A DNA stretch of 64,000 nt from a virus. Position 1 is the stretch's first letter; every line of letters begins with the position of its first letter. The position numbers and the translations under genes are program-made. Positions 428 through 33,888 of this stretch are shown here, piece by piece. The stretch lies in UHGV virus genome UHGV-0291501, one strand, 5' to 3'. The notes beneath the pieces were generated by a model, which made no database searches, was not told the origin of the DNA, and worked only from the letters and a program-made list of their open reading frames with translations.

Positions 428-1207
428 TCAGCTTATGAATTTGAACTTTTTAGAATACAGCAAGTAGTGAACTTCATCCTGATTTGTTGTGTAGATGTAT
501 GCTGCTGGGTAGTTATTAAAGAACACCCCTTCATATCTTCCAAACGGGTCAACTGGGAACATTTCACTGTTACACATACCCATCTCACTAACCAGAGGGT
601 AACTAACCTCAACCTTGCCATCAACAAGCTGATAGAGGGTAACTTGATTAGTCTTCCCGTCACTTAGCACGACACCATCATAGAATTGTGGTGCTGAGGT
701 AGCATACTTAGGGGTAACTACACTTGCCATTGCTTCATCATAGACGTAGAGGTACACATCAACGTTATACATAACACTATTAATGAGGCTTTTCACAGCT
801 TGTGCATCTAAACCGCCTATACCTGCCCCAATCATGGGTAAACCAATCTTACGAATGTTGTGCAGCCAGCAAAATTTACGGAGTTTTTCTAGTGACTCCA
901 CTAAGTATCGGTATGATGCACACTTCCCAACATCCAACTGTGTATATAGGTTAAAAATGTAACCATACTCCGTTCGAGCATGTGACACCTCACCAACCAT
1001 CTGGTATCCGATATCATGAGCACTGTAGCCAAACTTTTTATGGAATTTCCGGTCAGCTTCTTCAGCTTTTGGGAAAATCTTAGCAATTTTTTGAGCGATT
1101 CCAGCACCCATGAGGTTACGACAGTTGCAACCATGAGCAATTAACTCAATATCTGTGTTTTTGAAGGCAGCCAGTAAGTTACCTTTTACAACTTTTACAA
1201 TACCCAT
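428..1207 (-). CDS. Macro-domain protein (TARG1/OARD1/DarG-like N-terminal domain) with uncharacterised C-terminal extension
   Basis: N-terminal motif HGCNCRNLMGAGIAQKIAK resembles the TARG1-type macro signature; remaining ~110 aa unrecognised. Confidence 0.5.
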   Translation of the reverse strand: MGIVKVVKGNLLAAFKNTDIELIAHGCNCRNLMGAGIAQKIAKIFPKAEEADRKFHKKFGYSAHDIGYQMVGEVSHARTEYGYIFNLYTQLDVGKCASYRYLVESLEKLRKFCWLHNIRKIGLPMIGAGIGGLDAQAVKSLINSVMYNVDVYLYVYDEAMASVVTPKYATSAPQFYDGVVLSDGKTNQVTLYQLVDGKVEVSYPLVSEMGMCNSEMFPVDPFGRYEGVFFNNYPAAYIYTTNQDEVHYLLYSKKFKFIS

Positions 1208-1648: not shown

Positions 1649-1955
1649 AGTTTACCTTCTCAGTTAGCTCATATAAATCAACATGCTCAATACTGTCAAT
1701 GTTGATATCAATCTTTTTGAAACGTTCTATCACTTCGTTGTCAGTCATCCATATCAGACACCAATGATTCTGGATGGATTCTTCAAGAAGGTCAACACAA
1801 TCTTTAAAAGTTTTTGTATCACTTCTTGTTCCAACTACTGCGATTGTCCCATACAACCACTTACCATTGCCATAAGATACTTGTGCTACGCCAACTTCTT
1901 TATCTTTCTCGTAGTAAACGGCTACAAAGTCTCTTCCATTAATCTGCATAGTCAC
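1626..1955 (-). CDS. Hypothetical protein
   Basis: 109-aa ORF; start overlaps upstream stop; no motif. Confidence 0.45.
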   Translation of the reverse strand: MTMQINGRDFVAVYYEKDKEVGVAQVSYGNGKWLYGTIAVVGTRSDTKTFKDCVDLLEESIQNHWCLIWMTDNEVIERFKKIDINIDSIEHVDLYELTEKVNYESSRGN

Positions 1956-2221
1956 TTCCTCGTTTTAAGAACTGCTAAGATTTCTTTAGAATCTGGTAAG
2001 AACCATGTGTAGTGATTCTCTTTGATTTCTGGATGAGTGTCAACCTTTATTTTGCAATCTTTACCAACATGCTTAAGCTGTGCTGTGACACCTTGCATAA
2101 AGATATGACACATCACATTATCCATAATGGTTGGTAAGAAATCGATTCGCATATAAGTTTCTTTTGGTCGTGGCAACAGTAAGTAACCTTCTACATAGAA
2201 AGTGTCTTGATTCTCTGTCAT
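1952..2221 (-). CDS. Hypothetical protein
   Basis: 89-aa ORF; ATGA-type overlap with neighbour. Confidence 0.45.
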   Translation of the reverse strand: MTENQDTFYVEGYLLLPRPKETYMRIDFLPTIMDNVMCHIFMQGVTAQLKHVGKDCKIKVDTHPEIKENHYTWFLPDSKEILAVLKTRK

Positions 2222-2487
2222 TGCTGCTTATTCCCTAATAAAATCATGTCAATAAGGTTATTAGCTTTAATTGTACACTGGTAAAAGCCGTCACGGTAGA
2301 ACTCAAGTGCTGCTGCTACATCACTGCCTGTGTTGCCTTTGATGATATACCGTGATTCTTCTTGAGTGTACTTATCACTCTCACTTACTTGGGAGTTTTT
2401 GAATGTACTGTTCACTTTGTTCGTTGAACACCCTGACATAATTATCAGTAACACAAACATTATAAAACTCTGGCTTAGTTTTTTCAT
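2218..2487 (-). CDS. Putative lipoprotein, possible o-spanin (Rz1-like)
   Basis: Signal peptide with lipobox (LLIIMSGC); out-of-frame overlap with the 3-prime end of 2381..2728; RBS gaggt upstream. Not Pro-rich, so the spanin call is tentative. Confidence 0.35.
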   Translation of the reverse strand: MKKLSQSFIMFVLLIIMSGCSTNKVNSTFKNSQVSESDKYTQEESRYIIKGNTGSDVAAALEFYRDGFYQCTIKANNLIDMILLGNKQQ

Positions 2488-2728
2488 ATGTTAGTACCTC
2501 TTTTGTGTGCTTATTCTTAGCAAGCACATCTTTCAAATCATTTTTGTAATTGGTGCTCAGTGTAGCTAATCCTTCCTGATAAGCATCTTTAGCAACACTT
2601 ATCAGCTTCTCATTATTTAGCTCAGTTTCAGCAACTTGGTAGTCTCTGTAAGAGTATCCTCCCCAGACACCTGCCCCAACTAAGAAAACAATTATGAAAG
2701 TAGCTTGACAGAACTCTTTAAATGTCAT
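2381..2728 (-). CDS. Membrane-anchored coiled-coil protein, possible i-spanin (Rz-like)
   Basis: N-terminal TM helix (FIIVFLVGAGVWGG) then charged helical region; overlapped by the lipoprotein ORF in another frame. Confidence 0.35.
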   Translation of the reverse strand: MTFKEFCQATFIIVFLVGAGVWGGYSYRDYQVAETELNNEKLISVAKDAYQEGLATLSTNYKNDLKDVLAKNKHTKEVLTYEKTKPEFYNVCVTDNYVRVFNEQSEQYIQKLPSK

Positions 2729-2740
2729 TTAACAATCTCC

Positions 2741-2768
2741 TGAAATGAAAAAGGCTCCCGAAGGAGCC
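2741..2768 (-). terminator. Rho-independent terminator
   Basis: Hairpin ggctcc-cgaa-ggagcc followed on minus strand by UUUUUCAUUU; sits between genes ending 2781 and starting 2728. Confidence 0.6.
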
Positions 2769-2780
2769 TGTATCTTAACC

Positions 2781-3260
2781 TTAACCGAGGACTTTAGCAA
2801 GGATATTCGCAGCCATCGAAGAAGCTTTTGCAGCAGCAACTACGCCAGCTTTGACAGTGCTATCCTTAATAGCAGATACCGTTGCAGCATCAGTAAAGAG
2901 ATAAGTGATTGTTTTGGAACCACTTGTAAAGGAAAGCATAAGAGTAGTTTCCAGATTGAAAGAGCGATACGGAGCACCTTCTTTAACGATACCTTCAGCA
3001 CCTAACTCTGAAGCCTTACCCATATCATAGATAGTCATCAGGTTTTCTTTGTGTGCAGTCGTTGAACCAACACCTTTTACGTGCTTCTTAACGTTCAACA
3101 ATGCACGATATTCGCGAATGCTACCATCAGCTTTTACATTAACAGCACGGAAAATTTTACCTTCAAAGTTACCTTGAATCATTTTACGAACTACTTCAGA
3201 TTTGTTTGCCGTATCGTCCAGTGCTACCGTAATGATATTGTTCATAAGTTCTTCTCTCAA
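2781..3260 (-). CDS. Hypothetical protein
   Basis: 159-aa ORF; an alternative start at 3245 (MNNIIT) has a better purine-rich RBS. Confidence 0.45.
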   Translation of the reverse strand: MREELMNNIITVALDDTANKSEVVRKMIQGNFEGKIFRAVNVKADGSIREYRALLNVKKHVKGVGSTTAHKENLMTIYDMGKASELGAEGIVKEGAPYRSFNLETTLMLSFTSGSKTITYLFTDAATVSAIKDSTVKAGVVAAAKASSMAANILAKVLG

Positions 3261-3952
3261 TGTTTAACTAACATAGTTTTAATGTGTGGAAGGATTCTGT
3301 TTACCTTCTGAACATTCTTCTCTGTATCTTCTATAAAGCATACTATATTAAAGTAAGGAAGAATGCAAGACTGAATCATCCTCACTTTCAAACTTTCTGC
3401 ACTTATAGAGTTAGTTCCAAAACCACGCATAAAAAGCAAGTAATCATGCTCTATATTGTGCCTTAAAAAAATCTCAGTAGGTATTCTCTGAGATTCACCT
3501 CTTGCTGTCAAGAGTCCAACTGCTGCATGATTTGCAATTGCATCAATAATGTTGAAAACATATGTTGGCTTTGCTCTTACAGAATCAAGAAGATTAGTGT
3601 ACTGTGAGAATGACCCATCAGTCAATTCCGTTGAGCAATCTTCGTGATTAAAATTTGTAAGAACACCATCAATATCTGCTAAGATGAGGTTACCTTTTTC
3701 TACAAGGTCTTTATTGACTATCACTAAACTATCACGCCTTACACCTATAGTTTGTCCAGTCTCTTTGTCCACAACGTTCACAATGGGTTCTGATGTGTGG
3801 AACTCTTCAAGTGAACATACAACCTCTCTTGCAGTGTCTTCAAAATCTCTGCACTGTTCTGGAGTCCATACACAGGAATCAAGACCTAACTCATGAGGAT
3901 GCAAGTCATAAGCGTGGCACAGGACTTCATCAGACTTTCTTAATTTTTTCAT
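3257..3952 (-). CDS. HAD-superfamily phosphatase-like protein (possibly 5-prime(3-prime)-deoxyribonucleotidase-like)
   Basis: Motif ILADIDGVLTNF (HAD motif I DxDG) and LLTARGES (motif II-like); N-terminal ~80 aa unrecognised. Confidence 0.4.
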   Translation of the reverse strand: MKKLRKSDEVLCHAYDLHPHELGLDSCVWTPEQCRDFEDTAREVVCSLEEFHTSEPIVNVVDKETGQTIGVRRDSLVIVNKDLVEKGNLILADIDGVLTNFNHEDCSTELTDGSFSQYTNLLDSVRAKPTYVFNIIDAIANHAAVGLLTARGESQRIPTEIFLRHNIEHDYLLFMRGFGTNSISAESLKVRMIQSCILPYFNIVCFIEDTEKNVQKVNRILPHIKTMLVKH

Positions 3953-4478
3953 GATTTACCTTAGAAATGTTTGTTGCAAATTCACATTGAGCGATAACTT
4001 TCATATTGTTATAGACATCTTGAGAGTATTTCTTAGCTTTAGGGATTCTATACGAATACCCAGCATTATATGATGCTAAAACTTTTTGTAAAGTCTTCTT
4101 TGACTTTGGGTGACCATGTACCTTCGTCCAAAACTCAAGCTCTTTATGTGTTTCTTTTGCGGCATAGTCAAAATCTTTTAAGAGTTTCTTTTTAGCAACA
4201 TTAGGACTAATTTTGTTACGCTTTACAACAGTCTTCAAGTGATTCTGGAAGATACCATAGTCATGGGTCTTTTTATTTTCTACCTTCAGACCTAACTCTG
4301 ACTCTTGTAAGGCTATAGCTGCTAGAGTGATACCCCAACCTTTACCCATGTTATTCTCACCATACTGGTAAGCTTTTAACATGTTCACTTTTTGGCTAAT
4401 TGATAGCTCTGGGCAGTCAACTGCATAAGATAAGTGTGCTGTAAACATTAAGCACAAACCTAGAATCAATTTCTTCAT
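3930..4478 (-). CDS. Secreted lytic transglycosylase-like protein (SLT domain); candidate endolysin or cell-wall remodelling enzyme
   Basis: N-terminal signal peptide MKKLILGLCLMFTAHLSYA; catalytic-type motif ALQESELG ... DYGIFQNH. Confidence 0.5.
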   Translation of the reverse strand: MKKLILGLCLMFTAHLSYAVDCPELSISQKVNMLKAYQYGENNMGKGWGITLAAIALQESELGLKVENKKTHDYGIFQNHLKTVVKRNKISPNVAKKKLLKDFDYAAKETHKELEFWTKVHGHPKSKKTLQKVLASYNAGYSYRIPKAKKYSQDVYNNMKVIAQCEFATNISKVNHEKIKKV

Positions 4479-4532
4479 TGGTTCTCCTGTTTAGTTTATC
4501 GTGACAACAATTATACAGCACTCTGCACAAAA

Positions 4533-4563
4533 TACAAATAAAAAAGGCCGCCGAAGCAGCCTT
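4533..4563 (-). terminator. Rho-independent terminator
   Basis: Minus-strand RNA GGCUGC-UUCG-GCGGCC (one G-U pair) followed by UUUUUUAUUU; downstream of gene ending 4579. Confidence 0.55.
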
Positions 4564-4578
4564 TTAAGAAATTACTTA

Positions 4579-5688
4579 TTAGATTTCACGTTTACGTTGA
4601 GAGATGAGTTCACCAGCGGTGCCAACGATGACATGCAAAGCTTCAGTCTTACCGTCCCATGCTTCCAGCACTTTACGTTGATTATCAACGATTGCTGCAA
4701 CTTCATAACGAGAGGAACGCATCTTCATATCGTTGTAATCAGTTGGAACAGATACAACATCTCGTGGATGTACGCGAACCTTCAGGATTGTATCACCTGA
4801 GAAGCAACGAACATAATCCCAAGCACCAACATGAAGACCTTGAGAGCAAGTTACGTTACGGTTATTATCAACCATCCAACGTGGCATTTCTACAATGTTA
4901 CCCAAATCATTAGGCACTTTGTAGGTGTGAGAGTCAACCAGCTTGCCTTCACGAGTAGAGACTTTCTTCCAACCAATGATGTAGCCTTCTTCATCAATCT
5001 CAACATCAAGGTGAGATACAAATCCCCAAAGTTGTTCTACAGAATCTTTAGATGGGTTTTCCATCAGTTTTTCGAAGAACATTACAAGTCGTTCAAAACC
5101 TTTATCGCCAGTTTTCATCATGTGAAGAATACGGTCAACCAGAGTAGAACGCATCTCAACAGCACCGTAGAATAGCTTGTCACCTTTGATTGTGATAGCG
5201 CCCTGAGTGAAGTTTTCGATAGACTTACGAATGTTCATCAGTTCAAAGGCTTTCTTAAACTCACCTTTCACAACATGAACTACAATCTCTTGATAGTTCG
5301 GATGAGTAGATTCAACAATTTCAGACTCTGAACCGTAAGTCATAATTACAGAGTCACCAGTAATCATGTACTCAATCTTGTCATCTTTCTGCATAGCTTC
5401 ATGCAGTTTATTTACTGGAGCTTTCTGTACAGCCTCTTTAACAACCTTTTCAACTGGTTTGCCAGTTTTCTTTTTAACTGACTTAGCAACTTGCTTTAGG
5501 GTCTTCTTAGCTGGCTTAGAAGTTGCCTTTTTCTTACCTTTTAAGGTTGCTTCATGACGCTCTACAGCACGACCAACTGAACGGGTTGAAGTATTGAACT
5601 TCTGTGCGATAGCTGTTTTAGTCAGCTTACCTTCTTTAACCAGTTCGTAAATTTCTGCGTCAATCTGTGCTTTAGTTTTAGTAGTCAT
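4579..5688 (-). CDS. rIIB: rIIB-like protein
   Basis: Immediately downstream of the rIIA-like gene as in T4; central region (LFYGAVEMRSTLVDRIL ... ENPSKD ... EEGYIIGWKKV) resembles rIIB as I recall it; lysine-rich N-terminal linker. Confidence 0.45.
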   Translation of the reverse strand: MTTKTKAQIDAEIYELVKEGKLTKTAIAQKFNTSTRSVGRAVERHEATLKGKKKATSKPAKKTLKQVAKSVKKKTGKPVEKVVKEAVQKAPVNKLHEAMQKDDKIEYMITGDSVIMTYGSESEIVESTHPNYQEIVVHVVKGEFKKAFELMNIRKSIENFTQGAITIKGDKLFYGAVEMRSTLVDRILHMMKTGDKGFERLVMFFEKLMENPSKDSVEQLWGFVSHLDVEIDEEGYIIGWKKVSTREGKLVDSHTYKVPNDLGNIVEMPRWMVDNNRNVTCSQGLHVGAWDYVRCFSGDTILKVRVHPRDVVSVPTDYNDMKMRSSRYEVAAIVDNQRKVLEAWDGKTEALHVIVGTAGELISQRKREI

Positions 5689-5767: not shown

Positions 5768-8134
5768 TTAATCGTAAATTGTAGTCCCTTCTGGAACACA
5801 CTTCACATCAAAGCCTAAGAACTTACTCACTTCGATGGGTGACACTTTATTCCAATCTAAATGAGAAAGCAAGAAGTTTTCTTGTTTTCTTTTTGAAAGG
5901 TAGTTTGTCACCTTAATGACCATACGGTCACCAGCTTTCTTAATTTTCTTGTACAGCTTTGTATCATTGTCAAGGCAGTCTTTCAAAGTTTGCAACCTAC
6001 TAATAGTGTAAGTATATGCAAACGGTGCAGCAACGTATTGGATTTTACCAAACATTGCCTCTACAGCATCTTCATTGCCTTCTAAGAAGATAGTTTTGTT
6101 TGTATCCCGTGAATAACAATAGCCACGAGAAATCTTCCTGTTATTGAACGTAAAGTTTCTGGCAATAATCCAACTGCTTGTAAGGTCGAGGACACCATTC
6201 ATATAGATACGTGTCATATACCTGTTATGATTAATCCAATGAACATCAGTTAAGCTGTCGTTCAAGAGCTTCTCATCTACTTCAATCCAGTCTTCTGGTA
6301 TCTTTTTCCAATTTGCTTTTCGGAAAACATAGACTGTCTTACCTGTAACATTAGCAACTGACTTAGCTACATCTTCTGGAGATGAGCAAAAACATTCGCC
6401 ATCAACTGTGTCACCAACTGCCTTAATGTAAAGCTGAGGTTCTTCAATTGTATCAAAGTCCTCTGAAACCTCTTTATAGGAAGCTACACCTTCTGCTGGA
6501 ACAGCTTTCCAGAGTTTTACAACACCTCTTACAGCTTCTTTACGCTGATAATGGTGTTCCTTATCAGACATCTTCACAATCTTTAACAAGCTTTTATCAA
6601 GTTTGTGCAGATTGATTAGGTCGTCTAACTCTTTTTCAGTCGAGAATACAAAGACAATACCATTGTATCTGTGAAACAGACTAGACTCACTGGCATAGTC
6701 TCGACATGCACCACGCAAGATTTGATTGCGTCCTACAGTCTTCTCAGTACCGTTTTTATTGCGACGGTCATTTATAACAAACAAAAACTGTTCAATTTGG
6801 CTTTTACGCATTGCGCCAAAGATATTGAACATACTTGCCTCTTGAGTGTAGGAAAGCGATGTTGCACGAATCTTACTCTCTAAAGAGTTGAACTTGACAT
6901 AAGCAACTGGGTCATAAAGATAATCTACTTTAGGTATATTGTTCCCGTTCCTATCAACCTTAATATTACCTTTACCGTCACGTTCATAAATGACTGAGCC
7001 GTCTTCTGCGTAGATAATTCCACGACGAATGTTTAGTAATTCTTCTTCCAGAGAATCAAGCTTAACACCACCCCACTCTAGCTTTGGACACACAGCATTA
7101 AACATCTCTCGTGAGTTCAAACGTAACTCAGCATAAGCCTGTGCAGCATCCATGAGTGTGGGCTGATTGTTAATCTTTTTGATAACATCCTTTGTAATGG
7201 CTTCAGTTATCTTTTTGGTAGCCTCAATGATGACATTTTTTGTCGTATCATTCATCTGCAATGCTTCACGAGAAGCTGCAATAGCAACTGAACCAATAGG
7301 CATGTAGATGTTTACAAGGTCTACGCTCCTACGGAAAAATTCTGGCAATACTTTGAAGAAATCATCACCAAGTAATGCTTCCATGTTAACAGGGTAGGCA
7401 ATGTTACCCATCACCACATTAAACTCTGTCCTGTTATCACTAGAACGCCAGCTGTGCTTATGAATCATGGCATCATAAACACCTTCTTCACGGGCAATGA
7501 CGTTCATATCTGCTAATACATCGTCGTACTCAATATTACTTTCTGGTTTTACAGTGAAGTATGAGTACACATTCCCAGCTTCTTCAAAGAACTTTGAGAT
7601 ACGGTGGTCAGCAACCGCCACACGTACAGCTAAACCATTAGGTTCTTTTGTTGGGTTAGTTGTCAGCTTAGTTACTTGAGGGATACCATTCTCAAGATAA
7701 ACAGAGTACTTATTAACAACACCATCAACATAGCTAGATACTGTGAATGACTGAGCAATTGCAAATGGTGACTTTGAGCCGATACCCATTGCACCAATGT
7801 AGTCATTAGAGTCATTCTTCGTAGAAGCTCCATAGTTTAGGTACAAACTCATAACTTTATCATGAGTCAATCCAGTTCCAAAATCACGAACTTCGAAGTA
7901 AGGCTCAAAACGAGTAGGTAAATGCACATGGAACGGGATGTTCTCTTTTCCAGCCTCTTTCTGAGCATCTACTGCGTTACATGACAGTTCACGAATCACT
8001 GCCCTTTCTTTAAAGGTATATACACCAGAACTCAAAAGGCTGAACATTTCAGGTGTCATTGTAATCTGTGCTTGAGACGTCTCTAAAGAAGTTGAACTCT
8101 TAATCACTTCTGCGTGGTCGTTTACCATGCGCAT
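5768..8134 (-). CDS. rIIA: rIIA-like protein with N-terminal GHKL-type ATPase domain
   Basis: 788 aa; N-box-like CNAVDA, G-box-like RDFGTGL and AMGIGSKS; followed by rIIB-like gene. Confidence 0.55.
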   Translation of the reverse strand: MRMVNDHAEVIKSSTSLETSQAQITMTPEMFSLLSSGVYTFKERAVIRELSCNAVDAQKEAGKENIPFHVHLPTRFEPYFEVRDFGTGLTHDKVMSLYLNYGASTKNDSNDYIGAMGIGSKSPFAIAQSFTVSSYVDGVVNKYSVYLENGIPQVTKLTTNPTKEPNGLAVRVAVADHRISKFFEEAGNVYSYFTVKPESNIEYDDVLADMNVIAREEGVYDAMIHKHSWRSSDNRTEFNVVMGNIAYPVNMEALLGDDFFKVLPEFFRRSVDLVNIYMPIGSVAIAASREALQMNDTTKNVIIEATKKITEAITKDVIKKINNQPTLMDAAQAYAELRLNSREMFNAVCPKLEWGGVKLDSLEEELLNIRRGIIYAEDGSVIYERDGKGNIKVDRNGNNIPKVDYLYDPVAYVKFNSLESKIRATSLSYTQEASMFNIFGAMRKSQIEQFLFVINDRRNKNGTEKTVGRNQILRGACRDYASESSLFHRYNGIVFVFSTEKELDDLINLHKLDKSLLKIVKMSDKEHHYQRKEAVRGVVKLWKAVPAEGVASYKEVSEDFDTIEEPQLYIKAVGDTVDGECFCSSPEDVAKSVANVTGKTVYVFRKANWKKIPEDWIEVDEKLLNDSLTDVHWINHNRYMTRIYMNGVLDLTSSWIIARNFTFNNRKISRGYCYSRDTNKTIFLEGNEDAVEAMFGKIQYVAAPFAYTYTISRLQTLKDCLDNDTKLYKKIKKAGDRMVIKVTNYLSKRKQENFLLSHLDWNKVSPIEVSKFLGFDVKCVPEGTTIYD

Positions 8135-8162: not shown

Positions 8163-8339
8163 TTACTTGTTAAACATTTTACCAGAACCACCACACATAG
8201 GGCAACAACCTGCTCTTGTATAACCTTCCCCATTACAGTAGTCACATTTTTTGTGCTCTGCATAGTACTTACAAAGAAGGTAAACAAACACTGCTACGCC
8301 ACCAAGTGACAGTAAAATTTCTATCCAATATGCTTGCAT
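8163..8339 (-). CDS. Unannotated small membrane protein with DnaJ-type CxxCxGxG zinc-finger repeats (58 aa)
   Basis: Below the track's 60-aa cutoff. ATG at 8339 with RBS gaggtgag; translation MQAYWIEILLSLGGVAVFVYLLCKYYAEHKKCDYCNGEGYTRAGCCPMCGGSGKMFNK; overlaps the upstream stop by 19 nt. Confidence 0.35.
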   Translation of the reverse strand: MQAYWIEILLSLGGVAVFVYLLCKYYAEHKKCDYCNGEGYTRAGCCPMCGGSGKMFNK

Positions 8340-13748: not shown

Positions 13749-14140
13749 TCAAACACCACCTGACAAGGAACCTGTTTAGTAATAAATCCTTCGCAGTGTT
13801 CTTTAATGAAGTTTTGTAATGGCACACAATCTTGTGCACAAGTCATTAGTATAATGTACTCTGGATTCATAATGTTTTCAAGAGTGTAGAAGACAACATC
13901 GTTAGATAATTCATGACCGTCTTCTTCAGACCAAGTTCCAGAGACTACAGCTAATTTGTCAAGCAATTCATTAGGTAACGCTACACCATCTTCTACGGAA
14001 TCACTTAGAACGTTGTCGCTGAGGTACAATGTGAAGGTCGTATGGAATGTTGAATATCTTACGTGATTCTTTTCGCAAGAGCCACACTCTGAGGCATAAT
14101 CTTTAATCCACTCTAACTGTTTTTTGTTCAACTTAATCAT
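13745..14140 (-). CDS. Hypothetical protein
   Basis: 131-aa ORF; ATGA overlaps on both sides. Confidence 0.45.
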   Translation of the reverse strand: MIKLNKKQLEWIKDYASECGSCEKNHVRYSTFHTTFTLYLSDNVLSDSVEDGVALPNELLDKLAVVSGTWSEEDGHELSNDVVFYTLENIMNPEYIILMTCAQDCVPLQNFIKEHCEGFITKQVPCQVVFE

Positions 14141-14337
14141 AATTTCACCTTAGTTGGCAATGCACTGAATGCTATGACTAACCCTAAAAATGGTTTGAAG
14201 CATGACCATAAATCCATCTGACCCTGATATGCGAAACTCCATTGTGGGTCTGAAAAACCCCATACCATAACACTAACCCCAAAGAAGAAGATTAGAATGT
14301 GGAGAATGTATATCAACGCTTTTGATATTTTAAACAT
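14137..14337 (-). CDS. Small membrane protein
   Basis: 66 aa with hydrophobic segments (ILHILIFFFGVSVMVWGF). Confidence 0.4.
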   Translation of the reverse strand: MFKISKALIYILHILIFFFGVSVMVWGFSDPQWSFAYQGQMDLWSCFKPFLGLVIAFSALPTKVKL

Positions 14338-14491
14338 TTTAACTTGCCTCTTAATTCACAATAAGAGAGTCCTAAAAAGAACCCTAGTAAGACAGAACCT
14401 ATGAACAACCCAATAATACTCTCTGCCATATCTAACATCCAATAAAAAAGGTGATGTAAGCCTATCAAGACTCACACCACCATGTCAAGTT

Positions 14492-16684: not shown

Positions 16685-16891
16685 TTAAATCTTTTTAGAA
16701 AACTTAGAAACGAGTTTTCTCAGTTTTTCAGTGATGCCTAGCTGTATCTCTAATATTTCAAAGATAACCCATAGTAACATGGCCCCAAACAATGAACCTT
16801 GTTCAAAATCAGTAAATAGGTTAACAATCAGCATACCAATCACAATAGCTGGTGCATCGACAACCAAACCTTCCCAAATGCGTTTAAGCAT
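16685..16891 (-). CDS. Small membrane protein
   Basis: 68 aa with two hydrophobic helices; holin-like topology but no lysis context. Confidence 0.4.
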   Translation of the reverse strand: MLKRIWEGLVVDAPAIVIGMLIVNLFTDFEQGSLFGAMLLWVIFEILEIQLGITEKLRKLVSKFSKKI

Positions 16892-18508: not shown

Positions 18509-20743
18509 CTAAACACCACAACCCTCGCAATAAGCATCTTGCAGTGCAGATTTACCTACACCAATGCGACTGTTAAGGTAGTACATAGTTTTCATACCTA
18601 CTGAGTTAGCATAAATCATGTACTTCAAAGCTTGAGCCAATGATACCTTCTTAGCTTTTGCGTAGTCAACATAGAAATCTGAAGAGATAGCTTGACCAGT
18701 GAACTTTTGAACAATTGCATAACAATCAATCAGGTCAAAGGTGTCAATATCCCAAGCAATTTCATAGACATACTTCAACTCTTCGTAATCTGGAACAATA
18801 AACAGTACGTTACCAGTTGCAGACTTTTTAGTTAAAATAAAGTCACGAATTGGGTACAAGCCGTTTGTCGTATTAGTTGCCAGTGAAGAACTCTCATTAG
18901 GCATGTAAGCCTCTAATACAGAGTTACGGATTCCACCATTTTCTTTAATACGTTGTGCTAAGTCATCCCAATCATAACGAAGTTTTGCATCATGCTTCTC
19001 ATCAATCTTCTTGTTAGCTGTCTTTGGAGGAACCCAGCCTTCAGGATACTTAGTGAACTGCATATACTCAGGTACACCACGTTCTTTAGCAAGTCTTAAA
19101 GAAGCTTCGTGTAAGTAGTAAGAGTGCATTTCAGCAAGCTCATGAAGCTTCGTCTTACCTGCTCTTGAAGAGTAGTTCACGTAGTTTTTTGCAAGGTAAT
19201 GAGCCACATTTGTAAGGCCAATACCAACAGAACGACGCTTCTGAACATGGTTACGCATCGACGGATACGGATAATCCATAAGGTCAATAACGGAGTCAAC
19301 CATTGCAAGAGCATAATAAGCAACGTCAGCGTATTCATCTTCTGAAATTCTCCCTGCAACCAAACTAGCTAGGAAGCAAAGAGCTACCTCACCATCCTCT
19401 TTCACAGCATCATCTCTGTAAAGGTCTGTCTCTTTCTCAAAGCCGTACACTGGCAACACAATTTCCATACAAAGATTTGACATCTTCAAAGGTTCTTTAA
19501 ATGGCGTATGTGTGTTTGCATTATTCGTGAAGAATGGGTACACACGGCCTGTTGCATAACGCTGCTGGATAAACAGTTTAGCAATTTCACGAGCCTTTAC
19601 TCGTCTGTGCTTAACACCTGAATGGACTGCGTGACCAACTGCCATAGCAAACTCATCAGCAGATGCTGTGTAGAACATGTCATAGAGTTTTGGTGCATCC
19701 TTGTAAGAGAATAGCAACCAGTCTGTATCATATTGAACACACTGCCAGAAATAATCATTTGTACCAAATGAGTAGTCCATCTCGTTAATACGTTTCGAAG
19801 GAACCGTTGTAGGGTGCTTCAAACGCAGTAAATCTTCAATCTGCGGGTCTAGAGCAGTATAGAAGTTGTTAGCTGAACCACCACGACTCTTCTGTTTGTT
19901 TGCCTCTACAGATGAACGTACAAGCTTGTAATAAGGTAGCTTACCCATGTGTTCAATAGTATTTTGACGGATACCATCACCAATAGTGCGAGTCTCCATC
20001 AGCATCCCGATACCAGCTTGCTTTGTAGTCATGTCATAAGCAACCTTTGCAGCAATACCTAGAGATTCAGCAGTATCGTTCGCCTTAATCAAACAACATG
20101 ACGCATAACCTGATTTAGTAGCTCTTAAACCATTCAGATAAGGCGTAGGGGCATTAATCTTCAGGTCAGATAGGTAAGTGTACAGCTTGATAACATCTTG
20201 CAGTCTACGGTGCTTTGGTTGCTTCTCAAAGGCTTTCATAGCCATACCCATAAACATAAATTGCGGTGACTCAAAAAGTCTTCCAGTTTTAATATCACGG
20301 ATACCATACTTGTCTCTGAACTGTTTCAAGACTGCATAACCGTAAGAGATATCTTTTGAGTGCACGATGTAACCTTGCAGGTATTCAAGCTCTTCCTGTG
20401 AATAATCCATCTTCTCCCAAAGTCCTGCTCTCTCCATATTTTTAACGAAGGTAATCAGCGTAGGAACCTTAGTAAAGCCTCCAAAGGCTTCTTTGTAGAT
20501 AATACCCAAAAGCAGTCGTCCAGCCATATCTGAGTACTCTTGAGTTTGTTTATCAACACAAACATCAATCATGGCTTGGTGCATCTCTTTTGTAGTGCAA
20601 CCCTCATAGACACGTTTCATAGCTTCCATAGTGACCTCTGACCAGATAATTCCACGTTTATCTGCCCATGATGCCCACTTATTCAGTCTTTCTGGGTCAA
20701 AGCTTACTACTGTACCGTTTGATTTTTTAATTGTCTTAATCAT
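18509..20743 (-). CDS. nrdA: Ribonucleotide reductase large subunit (class I alpha)
   Basis: 744 aa; N-terminal ATP-cone-like region; C-terminal CxxC tail (YCEGCGV). Confidence 0.85.
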   Translation of the reverse strand: MIKTIKKSNGTVVSFDPERLNKWASWADKRGIIWSEVTMEAMKRVYEGCTTKEMHQAMIDVCVDKQTQEYSDMAGRLLLGIIYKEAFGGFTKVPTLITFVKNMERAGLWEKMDYSQEELEYLQGYIVHSKDISYGYAVLKQFRDKYGIRDIKTGRLFESPQFMFMGMAMKAFEKQPKHRRLQDVIKLYTYLSDLKINAPTPYLNGLRATKSGYASCCLIKANDTAESLGIAAKVAYDMTTKQAGIGMLMETRTIGDGIRQNTIEHMGKLPYYKLVRSSVEANKQKSRGGSANNFYTALDPQIEDLLRLKHPTTVPSKRINEMDYSFGTNDYFWQCVQYDTDWLLFSYKDAPKLYDMFYTASADEFAMAVGHAVHSGVKHRRVKAREIAKLFIQQRYATGRVYPFFTNNANTHTPFKEPLKMSNLCMEIVLPVYGFEKETDLYRDDAVKEDGEVALCFLASLVAGRISEDEYADVAYYALAMVDSVIDLMDYPYPSMRNHVQKRRSVGIGLTNVAHYLAKNYVNYSSRAGKTKLHELAEMHSYYLHEASLRLAKERGVPEYMQFTKYPEGWVPPKTANKKIDEKHDAKLRYDWDDLAQRIKENGGIRNSVLEAYMPNESSSLATNTTNGLYPIRDFILTKKSATGNVLFIVPDYEELKYVYEIAWDIDTFDLIDCYAIVQKFTGQAISSDFYVDYAKAKKVSLAQALKYMIYANSVGMKTMYYLNSRIGVGKSALQDAYCEGCGV

Positions 20744-20757
20744 TTTTAAATCCTACA

Positions 20758-20783
20758 GATGAAAAGAGCCTCCGAAGAGGCTC
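20758..20783 (-). terminator. Rho-independent terminator
   Basis: Hairpin gagcctc-cgaa-gaggctc followed on minus strand by CUUUUC. Confidence 0.5.
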
Positions 20784-20789
20784 CCTAGT

Positions 20790-21125
20790 TTAAATCTTGA
20801 AAATTTGCTCATTCTGCCACATATCGTAAAACTTATCACTTACTTTTGTGACTGAAGAGGCGTGCATACAATTTAGGAACCATGACGGTGTACTAGCATC
20901 CATAATTGTTTCAAGTTTTTGTGTGACATTCACATCCATGTCTGCAACAACGTAATTGCCTCGCATCTTGCAAACAATTCTTCCAAACAAGATTGCACTT
21001 CTGCCTCTTCTGTCGTCACAGTACATAACTGTGTCTCCGTGCTTAACATCTTGTCCGATACTATCAACACCTAATTTAGCACCTGAGATAATGTCATCAT
21101 AAGATAGCTTTTTTGCTTTAGACAC
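20790..21125 (-). CDS. Hypothetical protein
   Basis: 111-aa ORF; no motif. Confidence 0.45.
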   Translation of the reverse strand: MSKAKKLSYDDIISGAKLGVDSIGQDVKHGDTVMYCDDRRGRSAILFGRIVCKMRGNYVVADMDVNVTQKLETIMDASTPSWFLNCMHASSVTKVSDKFYDMWQNEQIFKI

Positions 21126-21450
21126 GGTATTTCTCCAAGTTTCTTTTTAGATATAACCAACCATAGTCAGTTCTTTCTACACCCATGAAGAGTGGAGCCA
21201 TTACAACTTTACCAAAAGTATTCCTGTGTTGACAGATTTCAAAAGAATACTCTTTCTCAATATCAATCCCGTATTTGTACAGGACTGCTTTTAAAACTTG
21301 TTCATTATCCAGAAGTGTATCTGGAGTCTCACCATACTTCTCAAGTAACGGGTCATTCATAAACACCGTCATAGAGATATTGTAGTTTGAGAAGTGGCTC
21401 TTCTGAGCCACACCTTCTTTATTAATGTTCTGTGAATCCATTATAACCAA
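21118..21450 (-). CDS. Hypothetical protein
   Basis: 110-aa ORF; no motif. Confidence 0.45.
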   Translation of the reverse strand: MVIMDSQNINKEGVAQKSHFSNYNISMTVFMNDPLLEKYGETPDTLLDNEQVLKAVLYKYGIDIEKEYSFEICQHRNTFGKVVMAPLFMGVERTDYGWLYLKRNLEKYRV

Positions 21451-33627: not shown

Positions 33628-33888
33628 GTGAACAATAAGGTTAAGAGTTGTGTGAAAGCAATGGTTGCACTTGGAGTAATTTTTCTGGCTGGCTGTAACC
33701 CATCTTATGAAAACAAAGATGCCTCTTACAGCCTCCCTCCAGAGATGCAAGACTGCAAAATCTACAAACTCAATGGGGATGCTATAAGCAGGGATATTGT
33801 TGTTGTCAGATGCCCAAACTCTCAAACAACAACATCTTATAGATATGGCAAAAATGGTCAATCACACACTACTGTTATTGATGGATGA
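33628..33888 (+). CDS. Putative lipoprotein
   Basis: GTG start; signal peptide with lipobox (VIFLAGC). Confidence 0.5.
   Translation: MNNKVKSCVKAMVALGVIFLAGCNPSYENKDASYSLPPEMQDCKIYKLNGDAISRDIVVVRCPNSQTTTSYRYGKNGQSHTTVIDG

What the first reader, a model, noticed from the sequence alone, without database searches (positions are those of the whole stretch)
2218..4478. Possible lysis-related genes: overlapped spanin-like pair and a secreted transglycosylase
A TM plus coiled-coil ORF (2381..2728) is overlapped out of frame at its 3-prime end by a lipoprotein ORF (2218..2487), the Rz/Rz1 signature. About 1.2 kb away a signal-peptide-bearing SLT-domain protein (3930..4478) could be a secreted endolysin. 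No holin is adjacent and the putative o-spanin is not proline-rich, so this is tentative.
Basis: inference. Interest (0 to 1): 0.4.

Follow-up and report, generated by a model that had tools for sequence, protein, structure and literature searches.

The report
Known Felix O1-type spanin pair
The overlapping membrane-protein and lipoprotein genes are the already catalogued outer-membrane-disrupting "spanin" pair of Felix O1-like phages, and the nearby secreted cell-wall enzyme is a relative of the uncharacterised T4 gene vs.1, not the phage's main lysis enzyme, so the finding is correct in part but ordinary.

Summary
The window is a Felixounavirus genome (Felix O1/wV8-like, 97-99% identical to many GenBank phages). 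All three ORFs exist exactly where stated.

**Spanin pair.** ORFs 2381-2728(-) and 2218-2487(-) overlap by 107 nt in different frames. They are 98% identical to Felix O1 p014/p015, which the curated spanin database of Kongari et al. 2018 lists as an overlapped i-spanin/o-spanin pair (family JH2). Many GenBank records annotate them the same way. My checks agree:
- Both frames show purifying selection.
- The lipobox, the conserved cysteines and the overlap persist in ten phages from four taxa.
- In three of those phages the pair sits directly after the endolysin, and in one of them annotated holin/antiholin genes flank it.

**SLT-like protein.** ORF 3930-4478(-) is a real Sec-exported GH23-fold enzyme (invariant catalytic Glu, AF2 pLDDT 84). 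It is a homologue of T4 Vs.1, an unexplained ORF conserved in thousands of large lytic phages. It is probably not the endolysin. The canonical T4/P22-type lysozyme of this phage group, shown to be active in a close relative, lies outside the window. No holin was identified in the window, and published annotations describe the lysis genes of this group as scattered, as in T4.

**Verdict.** Spanin reading supported and already known. Secreted-endolysin reading not supported. Low interest.

The parts
2381..2728 (-). i-spanin gene (115 aa). It has an N-terminal transmembrane segment at about residues 6-24, a periplasmic domain of about 88-91 aa, and one periplasmic Cys (C92) inside the conserved motif EKTKPxFxNxCxxDxYxRxFNE.
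   Evidence: phrog_1152 'Rz-like spanin', E 8e-42. It is 98% identical to Felix01 p014 in the curated spanin database, family JH2. The transmembrane segment and Cys were checked, and conservation across 10 phages.
2218..2487 (-). o-spanin gene (89 aa precursor). Its 19-aa SPase II signal ends in the lipobox IMSG|C20. The +2 residue is Ser, which implies outer-membrane sorting. The mature protein is 70 aa with no proline. C71 lies in the conserved C-terminal motif EFYRDxFYxCxIxxNxLID.
   Evidence: Lipobox rule met. It is 98% identical to Felix01 p015, family JH2. phrog_4180 scores 3e-51 and phrog_456 'Rz-like spanin' 2e-4. The third-position substitution pattern in its own frame is shown.
2381..2487 (-). 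The 107-nt dual-coding overlap. The last 35 sense codons of the i-spanin plus its stop codon, which hold its most conserved motif and Cys, are read in another frame as the o-spanin signal peptide and the first residues of the mature o-spanin.
   Evidence: Divergence here is 9.3%, against 18-31% in the flanking single-coding parts. The same 107-nt overlap is listed for Felix01, wV8, Moogle and Mushroom.
2752..2769 (-). Intrinsic terminator-like hairpin (AGGCTCCTTCGGGAGCCT followed by a T-run), immediately upstream of the i-spanin Shine-Dalgarno sequence (AGGAG, 2737-2741). It equals Felix O1 terminator t5.
   Evidence: Felix O1 Table 2, t5. wV8 annotation.
3930..4478 (-). Vs.1-like secreted GH23 (SLT / goose-lysozyme fold) enzyme of 182 aa. 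It has a Sec signal peptide at residues 1-19 and a catalytic Glu at position 59. C22 and C165 co-occur in homologues, which suggests a periplasmic disulfide (inferred).
   Evidence: Pfam SLT E 9e-4, 19.2 bits, below the 21.3 cutoff. E59, Q78, Y137, N138 and G140 are invariant in 13 homologues. AF2 pLDDT is 84. Foldseek top hits are g-type lysozyme, GH23 chitinase, Slt and MltE/D. The profile search against PDB gives EtgA as best hit, 2e-4. T4 Vs.1 aligns at 32% identity, E 2e-16.
4510..4515 (-). Perfect TATAAT hexamer between the rIIB terminator and the SLT gene's ribosome-binding site (AGGAG, 4484-4488). It is a possible sigma-70 -10 element. The tool's two-hexamer scan did not call it.
   Evidence: Read directly from the sequence. 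Not listed. The promoter reading is inference only.
4542..4565 (-). Intrinsic terminator-like hairpin after rIIB (Felix O1 t2). It separates rIIB from the SLT gene.
3257..3952 (-). Intervening gene annotated 'polynucleotide kinase' (231 aa). It has a HAD-type DxDG phosphatase motif (DIDGV) and no Walker-A kinase motif. It is not a lysis gene.
   Evidence: phrog_3970 1.5e-134. Only a weak alignment to the phosphatase half of T4 PseT. Sequence read.
2781..3245 (-). Intervening gene of unknown function (154 aa from the ATG; gp5 of Felix O1 and wV8). It is found almost only in Ounavirinae records. In Pectobacterium phage Wc4 the gene directly upstream of the spanin pair is instead an endolysin gene.
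   Evidence: phrog_2267, unknown function. No PDB or Pfam match. Distribution. Wc4 context.

Best explanation
The window is a Felix O1-like myophage genome. Genes 2381-2728(-) and 2218-2487(-) encode its two-component spanin.

**How the spanin most likely works.**
- The i-spanin is anchored in the inner membrane by an N-terminal transmembrane helix, with an 88-aa, mostly helical periplasmic domain.
- The o-spanin is an outer-membrane lipoprotein, lipidated at C20 and sorted by Lol because the +2 residue is Ser.
- By analogy with lambda Rz/Rz1 and T4 PseT.3/PseT.2, their C-terminal regions bind each other across the periplasm. The complex is probably stabilised by homotypic disulfides through the single conserved periplasmic Cys in each subunit (C92, C71).
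- Once the endolysin has removed the peptidoglycan mesh, the complexes fuse or disrupt the outer membrane, which is the last step of lysis.

**Shown versus inferred.** Shown here: gene structure, topology signals, purifying selection in both frames, family membership, and linkage to the endolysin (and, in one phage, to annotated holin/antiholin genes) in other phages. Inferred by analogy: complex formation, disulfides and membrane fusion.

**The SLT-like gene, 3930-4478(-).** It encodes a Sec-exported GH23-fold glycan-cleaving enzyme that is the Felix O1-group homologue of T4 Vs.1.
- It is most likely an accessory periplasmic peptidoglycan-remodelling enzyme.
- In Felix O1 its transcript peaks in mid-infection.
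- It is not the phage's endolysin. That role belongs to a cytoplasmic T4/P22-type lysozyme encoded outside this window.
For: **Identity of the window.** 97-99% nucleotide identity to wV8, the O157 typing phages and many other Felixounavirus records.

**Spanin pair: databases.**
- PHROG 'Rz-like spanin' match, 8e-42.
- Curated spanin database entries for Felix01, wV8, Moogle and Mushroom with the same lengths, the same 107-nt overlap and family JH2.
- GenBank i-spanin/o-spanin annotations.

**Spanin pair: my own tests.**
- Both genes have a Shine-Dalgarno sequence.
- The lipobox rule is met, +2 is Ser or Thr, and a C-terminal Cys is conserved in 10 of 10 o-spanin homologues. One periplasmic Cys is conserved in 10 of 10 i-spanins.
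- The overlapped architecture (107-164 nt, same relative frame) is kept in Ounavirinae, Kuravirus, Carvajevirus and Gorganvirus phages.
- Codon-position substitution patterns prove both frames are coding.
- In Klebsiella phage Carvaje and Proteus phage 2207-N35 the homologous pair ends a cluster containing the endolysin. In Carvaje the flanking genes are annotated holin/antiholin. In Pectobacterium phage Wc4 the pair directly follows the endolysin.
- The Felix O1 ORF 6 transcript peaks at 25 min, together with the lysin ORF 35.

**SLT-like protein.**
- Invariant catalytic Glu and LT motifs.
- Confident GH23-like model.
- EtgA and goose lysozyme are the best PDB sequence matches.
- 32% identity to T4 Vs.1, E 2e-16.
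- Present in 2128 phage records, including T4-like phages that have their own endolysin e.
- The canonical endolysin wV8 gp040 (phrog_7, 2.4e-57) maps to a part of the genome not contained in the window.
- That enzyme was shown to be active in a 99%-identical relative.
- gp3 is absent from the Felix O1 virion proteome list.
Against: - I found no experimental test of any JH2-family spanin: no complementation, no knockout phenotype.
- Transcription of the o-spanin ORF 7 was 'not tested' in the Felix O1 RT-PCR study.
- No coiled coil is predicted for the Felix O1 or wV8 i-spanin. The o-spanin has no prolines. It therefore lacks the two features tied to fusion in lambda Rz/Rz1.
- There is no sequence similarity to T4 PseT.3/PseT.2.
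- A terminator sits directly in front of the pair and no promoter is recognisable, so expression depends on read-through.
- For the SLT protein, the Pfam score is below the gathering cutoff. The fold matches have modest TM-scores of 0.45-0.56. No function is known for T4 Vs.1, so 'accessory remodelling enzyme' is an inference. A contribution to lysis is not excluded.
Confidence: 0.85

Rival explanations
1. The SLT-domain protein is a secreted (signal-peptide) endolysin. It would act as the phage's main, or a redundant, lysis enzyme together with the nearby spanins.
For: - It has a real muralytic-type fold with an invariant catalytic Glu.
- It has an N-terminal export signal.
- Several GenBank records call it 'putative lysin'.
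- It lies 1.2 kb upstream of the spanins, on the same strand.
- In Felix O1 its transcript peaks at 25 min, like the lysin.
Against: - A canonical cytoplasmic lysozyme-type endolysin exists in this phage group and is active in vitro.
- The protein is a homologue of T4 Vs.1. T4-like phages that carry it also carry endolysin e. In T4, e mutants are lysis-defective despite vs.1 (established T4 genetics, from my own knowledge).
- An exported, constitutively active endolysin made from mid-infection would defeat holin-timed lysis, unless it were regulated in some unknown way.
- No SAR-like, weakly hydrophobic Gly/Ala-rich anchor is present. The N-terminus looks like a cleavable signal.
Confidence: 0.1
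2. The TM-protein/lipoprotein pair is not a spanin. It would instead be an envelope-modifying or superinfection-exclusion module, in the manner of the T5 Llp or T4 Imm/Sp type proteins, that happens to have spanin-like topology.
For: - The pair lies among early and middle accessory genes (rIIA/B, Vs.1-like, phosphatase, macro-domain protein). It is far from the endolysin and sits behind a terminator.
- No member of the family has been tested experimentally.
- No coiled coil or proline-rich region is present.
Against: - In unrelated siphophages and in an Ounavirinae relative, homologues of the pair sit directly after the endolysin, and in Carvaje after annotated holin/antiholin genes.
- No other spanin candidate has been reported for these phages, which infect Gram-negative hosts.
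- T4's proven spanins are also remote from t and e, lie next to pseT, and lack a proline-rich region.
- The conserved paired cysteines fit the disulfide rule found for 96% of two-component spanins.
Confidence: 0.05

Closest known systems
Felix O1 p014/p015 (gp6/gp7) and the 'JH2' i-spanin and o-spanin families of the curated spanin database (Kongari et al. 2018, PMC6139136)
   Same: - Essentially the same proteins: 98% identity.
- Same lengths (115 and 89 aa) and same 107-nt overlapped architecture.
- Same ribosome-binding sites and the same lipobox position.
- One periplasmic Cys in each subunit.
   Different: Only a few substitutions, for example lipobox IMSG here against TMSG in Felix O1. 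Nothing functional differs.
Phage T4 PseT.3/PseT.2 spanins
   Same: - A two-component spanin with no proline-rich region in the o-spanin.
- Genes remote from the holin and endolysin.
- Genes close to a pseT-type phosphatase gene.
- T4 function is proven by complementation of lambda Rz/Rz1.
   Different: - No detectable sequence similarity.
- The T4 genes are 'separated', not overlapped.
- T4 has 0 Cys in the i-spanin and 2 in the o-spanin. Here there is 1 in each.
Lambda Rz/Rz1
   Same: - A type II inner-membrane protein plus an outer-membrane lipoprotein encoded in a different frame of the same DNA.
- Periplasmic cysteines available for intermolecular disulfides.
- The presumed role is outer-membrane disruption as the last lysis step.
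   Different: - Lambda Rz1 is fully embedded in Rz. Here the o-spanin gene overlaps the 3' end and extends beyond it.
- There is no penta-proline stretch (0 Pro).
- No coiled coil is predicted for the Felix O1/wV8 i-spanin, whereas lambda Rz has two coiled-coil domains (CC1, CC2).
- The pair is not in a lysis cassette.
T4 Vs.1 (conserved ORF of T4-like phages with marginal SLT similarity; Nolan et al. 2006, PMC1524935)
   Same: - 32% identity over 174 aa (E 2e-16).
- Same length (181 against 182 aa).
- An N-terminal signal-like sequence.
- The QES, YG-x-FQN and SYN-x-G motifs.
- It co-exists with a separate canonical endolysin.
   Different: - Different genomic neighbours: vs/regB in T4, rIIB and a phosphatase here.
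- The Ounavirinae proteins have a co-occurring Cys pair (C22/C165) that T4 Vs.1 lacks.
Specialised small secreted lytic transglycosylases of secretion systems (EtgA of the EPEC T3SS, PDB 8urn) and goose-type lysozymes (GH23)
   Same: - They are the best PDB sequence-profile and fold matches.
- Similar size (about 150-190 aa), signal peptide, a single GH23 domain and a catalytic Glu followed by Ser.
   Different: - The matches are weak (E 2e-4; TM 0.45-0.56).
- The gene is phage-encoded and has no associated secretion apparatus.
- Whether it acts as a lytic transglycosylase or as a hydrolase is not known.

Membership tests
Two-component spanin (i-spanin + o-spanin) | The i-spanin is a small protein with one N-terminal transmembrane domain and a periplasmic C-terminal domain. 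| tested here: met
   Hydrophobic segment at residues 6-24 (KD 1.75), followed by about 90 hydrophilic residues. The same holds in 10 of 10 homologues. The curated database gives 27 aa for the N-terminus plus TMD and 88 aa periplasmic.
Two-component spanin (i-spanin + o-spanin) | The o-spanin is a small lipoprotein with an SPase II signal, a lipobox Cys and no Asp at +2 (outer-membrane sorting). | tested here: met
   A PS51257-style rule is met: K2, K3 and IIMSG|C20 with +2 = Ser. Nine of 10 homologues pass the strict rule and the tenth passes a relaxed one. All have Ser or Thr at +2. No dedicated predictor such as LipoP or SignalP was available.
Two-component spanin (i-spanin + o-spanin) | The o-spanin gene is embedded in, overlapping, or immediately downstream of the i-spanin gene, on the same strand. 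| tested here: met
   A 107-nt overlap in a different frame. Both frames are under purifying selection.
Two-component spanin (i-spanin + o-spanin) | At least one periplasmic cysteine is available for an intermolecular disulfide. This holds for 96% of curated systems. | tested here: met
   C92 in the i-spanin and C71 in the o-spanin, both at conserved alignment positions in all 10 pairs. Disulfide formation itself was not tested.
Two-component spanin (i-spanin + o-spanin) | Genetic linkage to the holin and endolysin (a lysis cassette). | tested here: not met
   In this genome the endolysin is about 15 kb away in wV8 coordinates and outside the window. No holin was found nearby. This feature is not obligatory: T4 also lacks it. 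Homologues in Carvaje, Proteus 2207-N35 and Wc4 do sit directly after the endolysin, and in Carvaje annotated holin/antiholin genes flank it.
Two-component spanin (i-spanin + o-spanin) | Function: the two proteins form a periplasm-spanning complex that is required for outer-membrane disruption. The tests are complementation of lambda Rz/Rz1 amber mutants and a spherical-cell arrest phenotype. | not testable with these tools
   I found no experimental report for the JH2 family.
Spanin database family 'JH2' (sequence family) | Sequence similarity to family members (Felix01, wV8, JH2, Moogle and others). | tested here: met
   - The i-spanin is 98% identical to Felix O1 and 100% identical to several phages.
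- The o-spanin is 98.9% identical to Felix O1, 94% to JH2 and 82% to Moogle.
Lambda Rz/Rz1 sequence family | Two coiled-coil domains in Rz and a proline-rich region with a penta-proline stretch in Rz1. | tested here: not met
   The mature o-spanin has 0 Pro. No coiled coil is predicted for the Felix01 or wV8 i-spanins in the curated analysis. The pair is therefore not a member of the lambda family, although it is the same functional class.
Phage endolysin (the principal lysis muralytic enzyme) | A muralytic catalytic domain. | tested here: met
   GH23-like fold with an invariant Glu59.
Phage endolysin (the principal lysis muralytic enzyme) | It is the enzyme required for lysis, either the only one or a holin-controlled one, and is typically next to the holin or spanin genes. 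| tested here: inconclusive
   - A different, canonical endolysin exists and is active in vitro.
- The T4 homologue Vs.1 co-exists with endolysin e.
- A genetic requirement cannot be tested with these tools.
T4 Vs.1 family | Significant full-length sequence similarity to T4 Vs.1. | tested here: met
   BLASTP gives 32% identity over 174 of 182 aa, E 2e-16. tblastn hits RB43 'vs.1' and hundreds of Tevenvirinae records.
Pfam SLT (PF01464) / family 1 lytic transglycosylases | A Pfam score above the gathering threshold, plus the conserved motifs E-S, G-x-x-Q and A/S-Y-N-x-G. | tested here: inconclusive
   - The score is 19.2 bits, below the 21.3 cutoff.
- All three motifs are present and invariant or nearly so.
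- Distant homologues P0015-P0020 carry precomputed PF01464 hits.
- Whether the chemistry is that of a lytic transglycosylase or a lysozyme was not tested.

The most novel reading that the evidence does not exclude
The Vs.1-type secreted GH23 enzyme is found in Felix O1-like, T4-like, Ackermannviridae and other large lytic phages (2128 records), always alongside a separate endolysin. It could have a specific, still undescribed role in the lysis pathway or in envelope takeover. One example would be pre-thinning or locally opening the peptidoglycan from mid-infection, so that spanin complexes can assemble or so that lysis is abrupt. In Felix O1-like phages it would then form a functional unit with the downstream spanin pair, which is reached by terminator read-through. 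Nothing here excludes this, and nothing here shows it.
Probability: 0.12. Interest if true: 0.45.

Novelty: already known. Interest (0 to 1): 0.08.

Why it matters
It matters little for discovery. The spanin pair of Felix O1-like phages has been in the curated spanin database since 2018 and is annotated in many GenBank records. Its practical value is for annotation quality:
- Many Felixounavirus records, including wV8, HY02 and the O157 typing phages closest to this window, still label the o-spanin, or both genes, 'hypothetical protein'.
- Some records use a downstream start codon that relatives do not conserve.
- Some call the Vs.1-like protein 'lysin'.

The only open biological question touched here is the function of the widespread Vs.1 family of secreted GH23 proteins. 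It has been unknown since the T4 genome was annotated.

Tried and rejected
- **Kinship with the T4 spanins.** BLASTP of the pair against PseT.3 and PseT.2 found nothing beyond the signal peptide.
- **Holin search.**
  - A hydrophobicity scan of all window ORFs and of wV8 genes 13-47 gave several small membrane proteins.
  - PHROG searches of eight of these proteins, including the wV8 endolysin as a positive control, returned only 'membrane protein' or unknown-function families, and no holin.
  - The literature disagrees. It reports a class III holin in Mushroom, none found in Meda, and five candidates in Felix O1.
- **Endolysin in the window.** tblastn with wV8 gp040 found nothing, because the window lacks wV8 positions 6869-32852.
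- **AF2 on the i-spanin.** A single-sequence run gave pLDDT 48.7, an uninformative all-helix guess. I did not use it.
- **Database searches on the SLT protein.** The single-sequence PDB search and NCBIfam gave nothing useful. Only the profile and fold searches were informative.
- **A recurrent Vs.1-spanin linkage.** In Aeromonas phage ZPAH1 the two ORFs between alc and the Vs.1 homologue have no TM segment or lipobox, so I dropped the idea.
- **gp5 (2781-3245) as a hidden lysis protein.** It has no family, PDB or transmembrane evidence, so I left it as unknown.
- **Large searches not run.** I did not run further large protein-database searches on the spanins, because the verdict did not depend on them.

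Full report
**What the window is.** Megablast of 1900-4600 finds 258 phage records. Of these, 251 cover at least 80% of the query, and the best matches are 97-99% identical (E. coli O157 typing phages 8/11/12, wV8, HY02 and others). All are Felixounavirus or other Ounavirinae. Aligning the wV8 RefSeq genome shows that the window equals wV8 6868->1 followed by 88487->32853, in reverse complement. On the minus strand the gene order is:
- rIIA, 5768-8134
- rIIB, 4579-5688
- SLT-like, 3930-4478
- 'polynucleotide kinase', 3257-3952
- gp5, 2781-3245
- i-spanin, 2381-2728
- o-spanin, 2218-2487
- small unknown ORFs
- macro-domain protein, 428-1207

**Observation check.**
- The 115-aa ORF has AGGAG 8 nt before its ATG and a hydrophobic segment at residues 6-24.
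- The 89-aa ORF has GAGGT before its ATG, two lysines, a hydrophobic core and IIMSG|C20 followed by Ser. It passes a PROSITE-style lipobox rule.
- The two ORFs share 107 nt in different frames.
- The downstream ATG (M10), used as the start in some GenBank records, is not conserved in Moogle or SUSP2. The first ATG, at 2487, is therefore the likely start.
- 163 of the o-spanin's 270 nt lie downstream of the i-spanin stop, and almost none of that stretch is overlapped by another gene (only its last 4 nt overlap the next ORF's start).

The overlap is not a chance ORF.
- Against Moogle and SUSP2, substitutions fall mainly on third codon positions of the i-frame before the overlap (35/58 and 30/44).
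- After the overlap they fall mainly on third positions of the o-frame (35/50 and 24/33).
- Divergence drops to 9.3% inside the overlap, from 18-31% outside it.

**The pair is already known.**
- The supplementary tables of Kongari et al. 2018 (PMC6139136) list Felix01 (p014/p015), wV8, Moogle, Mushroom and FSL SP-010 as 'ovl' two-component spanins. The i-spanin gene is 348 nt and the overlap 107 nt. The ribosome-binding sites are the same. The N-terminal/TMD part is 27 aa and the periplasmic part 88 aa. The signal is 19 aa and the mature o-spanin 70 aa. Each subunit has one periplasmic Cys. Both subunits are placed in family 'JH2'.
- The window's proteins differ from those entries by one or two residues.
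- PHROGs gives 'Rz-like spanin' at 8e-42 for the i-spanin.
- Genome announcements from the Center for Phage Technology state that Felix O1-like phages encode an inner-membrane and an outer-membrane spanin. They also state that the lysis genes are scattered rather than forming a cassette.

**Independent support from relatives.** tblastn finds the o-spanin in 320 phage records and the i-spanin in 403. I extracted ten loci: the window itself, three Felix O1-like relatives (wV8, Moogle, SUSP2), three more distant Ounavirinae (Hafnia Zyzzx, Erwinia Pistou, Pectobacterium Wc4), a podophage (Kuravirus NJ01) and two siphophages (Klebsiella Carvaje, Proteus 2207-N35). In all ten:
- the o-spanin gene starts inside the 3' end of the i-spanin gene, in the same relative frame, with an overlap of 107-164 nt;
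- the lipobox Cys is present and +2 is Ser or Thr;
- proline content is 0-6%;
- a C-terminal motif (E/D)(F/W)(Y/W)xDx(F/Y)xxC(A/T)xxxNxL(I/V)(D/E) is conserved, with its Cys;
- the i-spanin has a conserved EKxxxPxFxNxCxxxxYxxxFNE motif with a single periplasmic Cys.

In Carvaje the pair follows genes annotated holin/antiholin, lysozyme and holin/antiholin. In Proteus 2207-N35 it follows the endolysin, which has two unannotated small ORFs upstream. In Wc4 it directly follows a P22-type endolysin. This association links the family to lysis, even though in Felix O1-like genomes the pair is isolated.

**How it most likely works.** This is inferred from the lambda and T4 paradigms as summarised.
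- The i-spanin is anchored in the inner membrane and the o-spanin in the inner leaflet of the outer membrane.
- Their C-termini associate through the peptidoglycan mesh.
- Homotypic disulfides (C92-C92 and/or C71-C71) stabilise the complex.
- When the endolysin destroys the mesh, the complexes are free to act and fuse or rupture the outer membrane.

Like T4 PseT.2, and unlike lambda Rz1, this o-spanin has no proline-rich region. The curated analysis predicts about 66% helix but no coiled coil for the Felix O1/wV8 i-spanin. There is no sequence similarity to T4 PseT.3/PseT.2.

A terminator-like hairpin (2752-2769, Felix O1 t5) sits directly before the i-spanin ribosome-binding site, with no room for a promoter. 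In Felix O1, RT-PCR found that the ORF 6 (i-spanin) transcript peaks at 25 min, as does the lysin ORF 35. ORF 7 was not tested.

**The SLT-like protein.**
- Pfam SLT scores just below threshold (19.2 against 21.3 bits).
- Thirteen homologues share an invariant Glu59 (followed by Ser), Q78, and Y137-N138-x-G140. These are the three signature motifs of family 1 lytic transglycosylases.
- An AF2 model built on that alignment is confident (pLDDT 84, pTM 0.79). Its Foldseek matches are all GH23-type: cod g-type lysozyme, Ralstonia GH23 chitinase, Slt/Cj0843, MltE, MltD, MltF and phiKZ gp144. TM-scores are modest at 0.45-0.56.
- The best PDB sequence-profile match is EtgA, the lytic transglycosylase of the EPEC type III secretion system, followed by goose lysozymes.
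- The N-terminus is a standard cleavable signal (MKK / hydrophobic core / SYA|VD) and not a lipobox.
- Cys22 and Cys165 co-occur in homologues. This suggests a periplasmic disulfide, which is an inference.

The key result is that the protein is a homologue of T4 Vs.1, with 32% identity over 174 residues and E 2e-16. tblastn finds the family in 2128 phage records, including Tevenvirinae, Ackermannviridae, and Vibrio, Aeromonas and Acinetobacter T4-like phages. Nolan et al. 2006 already noted the marginal SLT similarity of vs.1 and its conservation, without a function.

**Why it is probably not the endolysin.**
- Felix O1-like phages have a canonical lysozyme-type endolysin (Felix O1 gp35, wV8 gp040; phrog_7 2.4e-57).
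- That enzyme, from the Felixounavirus phages CL1 and C600M2 (99% identical to the Felix O1 lysin), was expressed, purified and validated experimentally.
- The gene lies at wV8 20729-21193, in the part of the genome not included in the window. tblastn finds no copy in the window.
- T4-like phages that carry vs.1 also carry e. From established T4 genetics (my own knowledge, not a tool result), e mutants do not lyse, so Vs.1 does not substitute for the endolysin there.
- The Vs.1-like protein is not in the Felix O1 virion proteome list, so it is not an entry enzyme either.

My best reading is an accessory periplasmic peptidoglycan-cleaving enzyme of unknown purpose. A supporting role in lysis cannot be excluded.

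**Holin.** I found no holin in the window. A hydrophobicity scan yields several small membrane proteins, but their PHROG families are 'membrane protein' or unknown. The literature is inconsistent on the holin of this group.

**Verdict.** The spanin interpretation is right and has been in the curated literature since at least 2015-2018. The secreted-endolysin interpretation is not supported, because that gene is a Vs.1-family member. The pair belongs to a known family and a known architecture class, and nothing in it departs from either. Interest is low.

Noticed in passing
window 2381-2487 (-): The most conserved i-spanin motif (EKTKPEFYNVC...) and the o-spanin signal peptide (MKKLSQSFIMFVLL...) are encoded by the same nucleotides. 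The unusual conservation of the o-spanin signal sequence across distant phages (KKLxQxFIM) is therefore probably imposed by the i-spanin frame.
   Followed up: partly
window 3257-3952 (-): The gene annotated 'polynucleotide kinase' in relatives has a HAD-type DxDG motif (DIDGV). It has no Walker-A kinase motif and aligns only weakly with the phosphatase half of T4 PseT. The kinase label looks over-annotated.
   Followed up: partly
window 428-1207 (-): The macro-domain protein (Pfam Macro, 1.2e-6) is a homologue of T4 Tk.4 (33% identity, E 1e-22) with about 100 extra C-terminal residues. Together with rIIA/B, the Vs.1-like gene and the PseT-like gene, it makes this block a collection of T4-type accessory genes.
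   Followed up: partly
window 33628-33888 (+): A second predicted lipoprotein ORF (86 aa, MNNKVKSCVKAMVALGVIFLAG|CN...) lies in the block between the DNA ligase and DNA polymerase genes. Its family is phrog_902, unknown function. It could be an envelope or superinfection-exclusion protein.
   Followed up: no
window 2752-2769 (-) and Felix O1 RT-PCR data: A strong terminator-like hairpin sits immediately before the i-spanin ribosome-binding site, with no promoter-like site after it. In Felix O1 the upstream ORF 5 peaks at 10 min and the i-spanin ORF 6 at 25 min, so how the pair is timed is unexplained.
   Followed up: partly
L011 (Pectobacterium phage Wc4) 2294-3276: In this Ounavirinae relative a P22-type endolysin gene lies directly upstream of the spanin pair. 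That is the position occupied in Felix O1-like phages by the unknown gene gp5. It suggests the scattered arrangement arose by rearrangement of a former cassette.
   Followed up: no
window 8163-8339 (-): A 58-aa ORF with an N-terminal hydrophobic segment and a Cys-rich CxxCxGxG...CxxCxGxG tail (DnaJ-type zinc-finger-like). Its family is phrog_3931, unknown function.
   Followed up: no
window 14137-14468 (-) and 16685-16891 (-): Three small membrane-protein ORFs (66, 51 and 68 aa; one or two TM segments). They are the only holin-sized membrane proteins I saw in the window. Their PHROG families say only 'membrane protein' or unknown.
   Followed up: partly
GenBank records of relatives (e.g. wV8 NC_012749 gp007, HY02, O157 typing phages; fjerdesal_52): Annotation is inconsistent. 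The o-spanin is 'hypothetical protein' in many records and is annotated from a downstream, non-conserved start in others. The Vs.1-like gene is called 'putative lysin' in some records and is given a different 3' end in wV8 (197 aa against 182 aa).
   Followed up: partly
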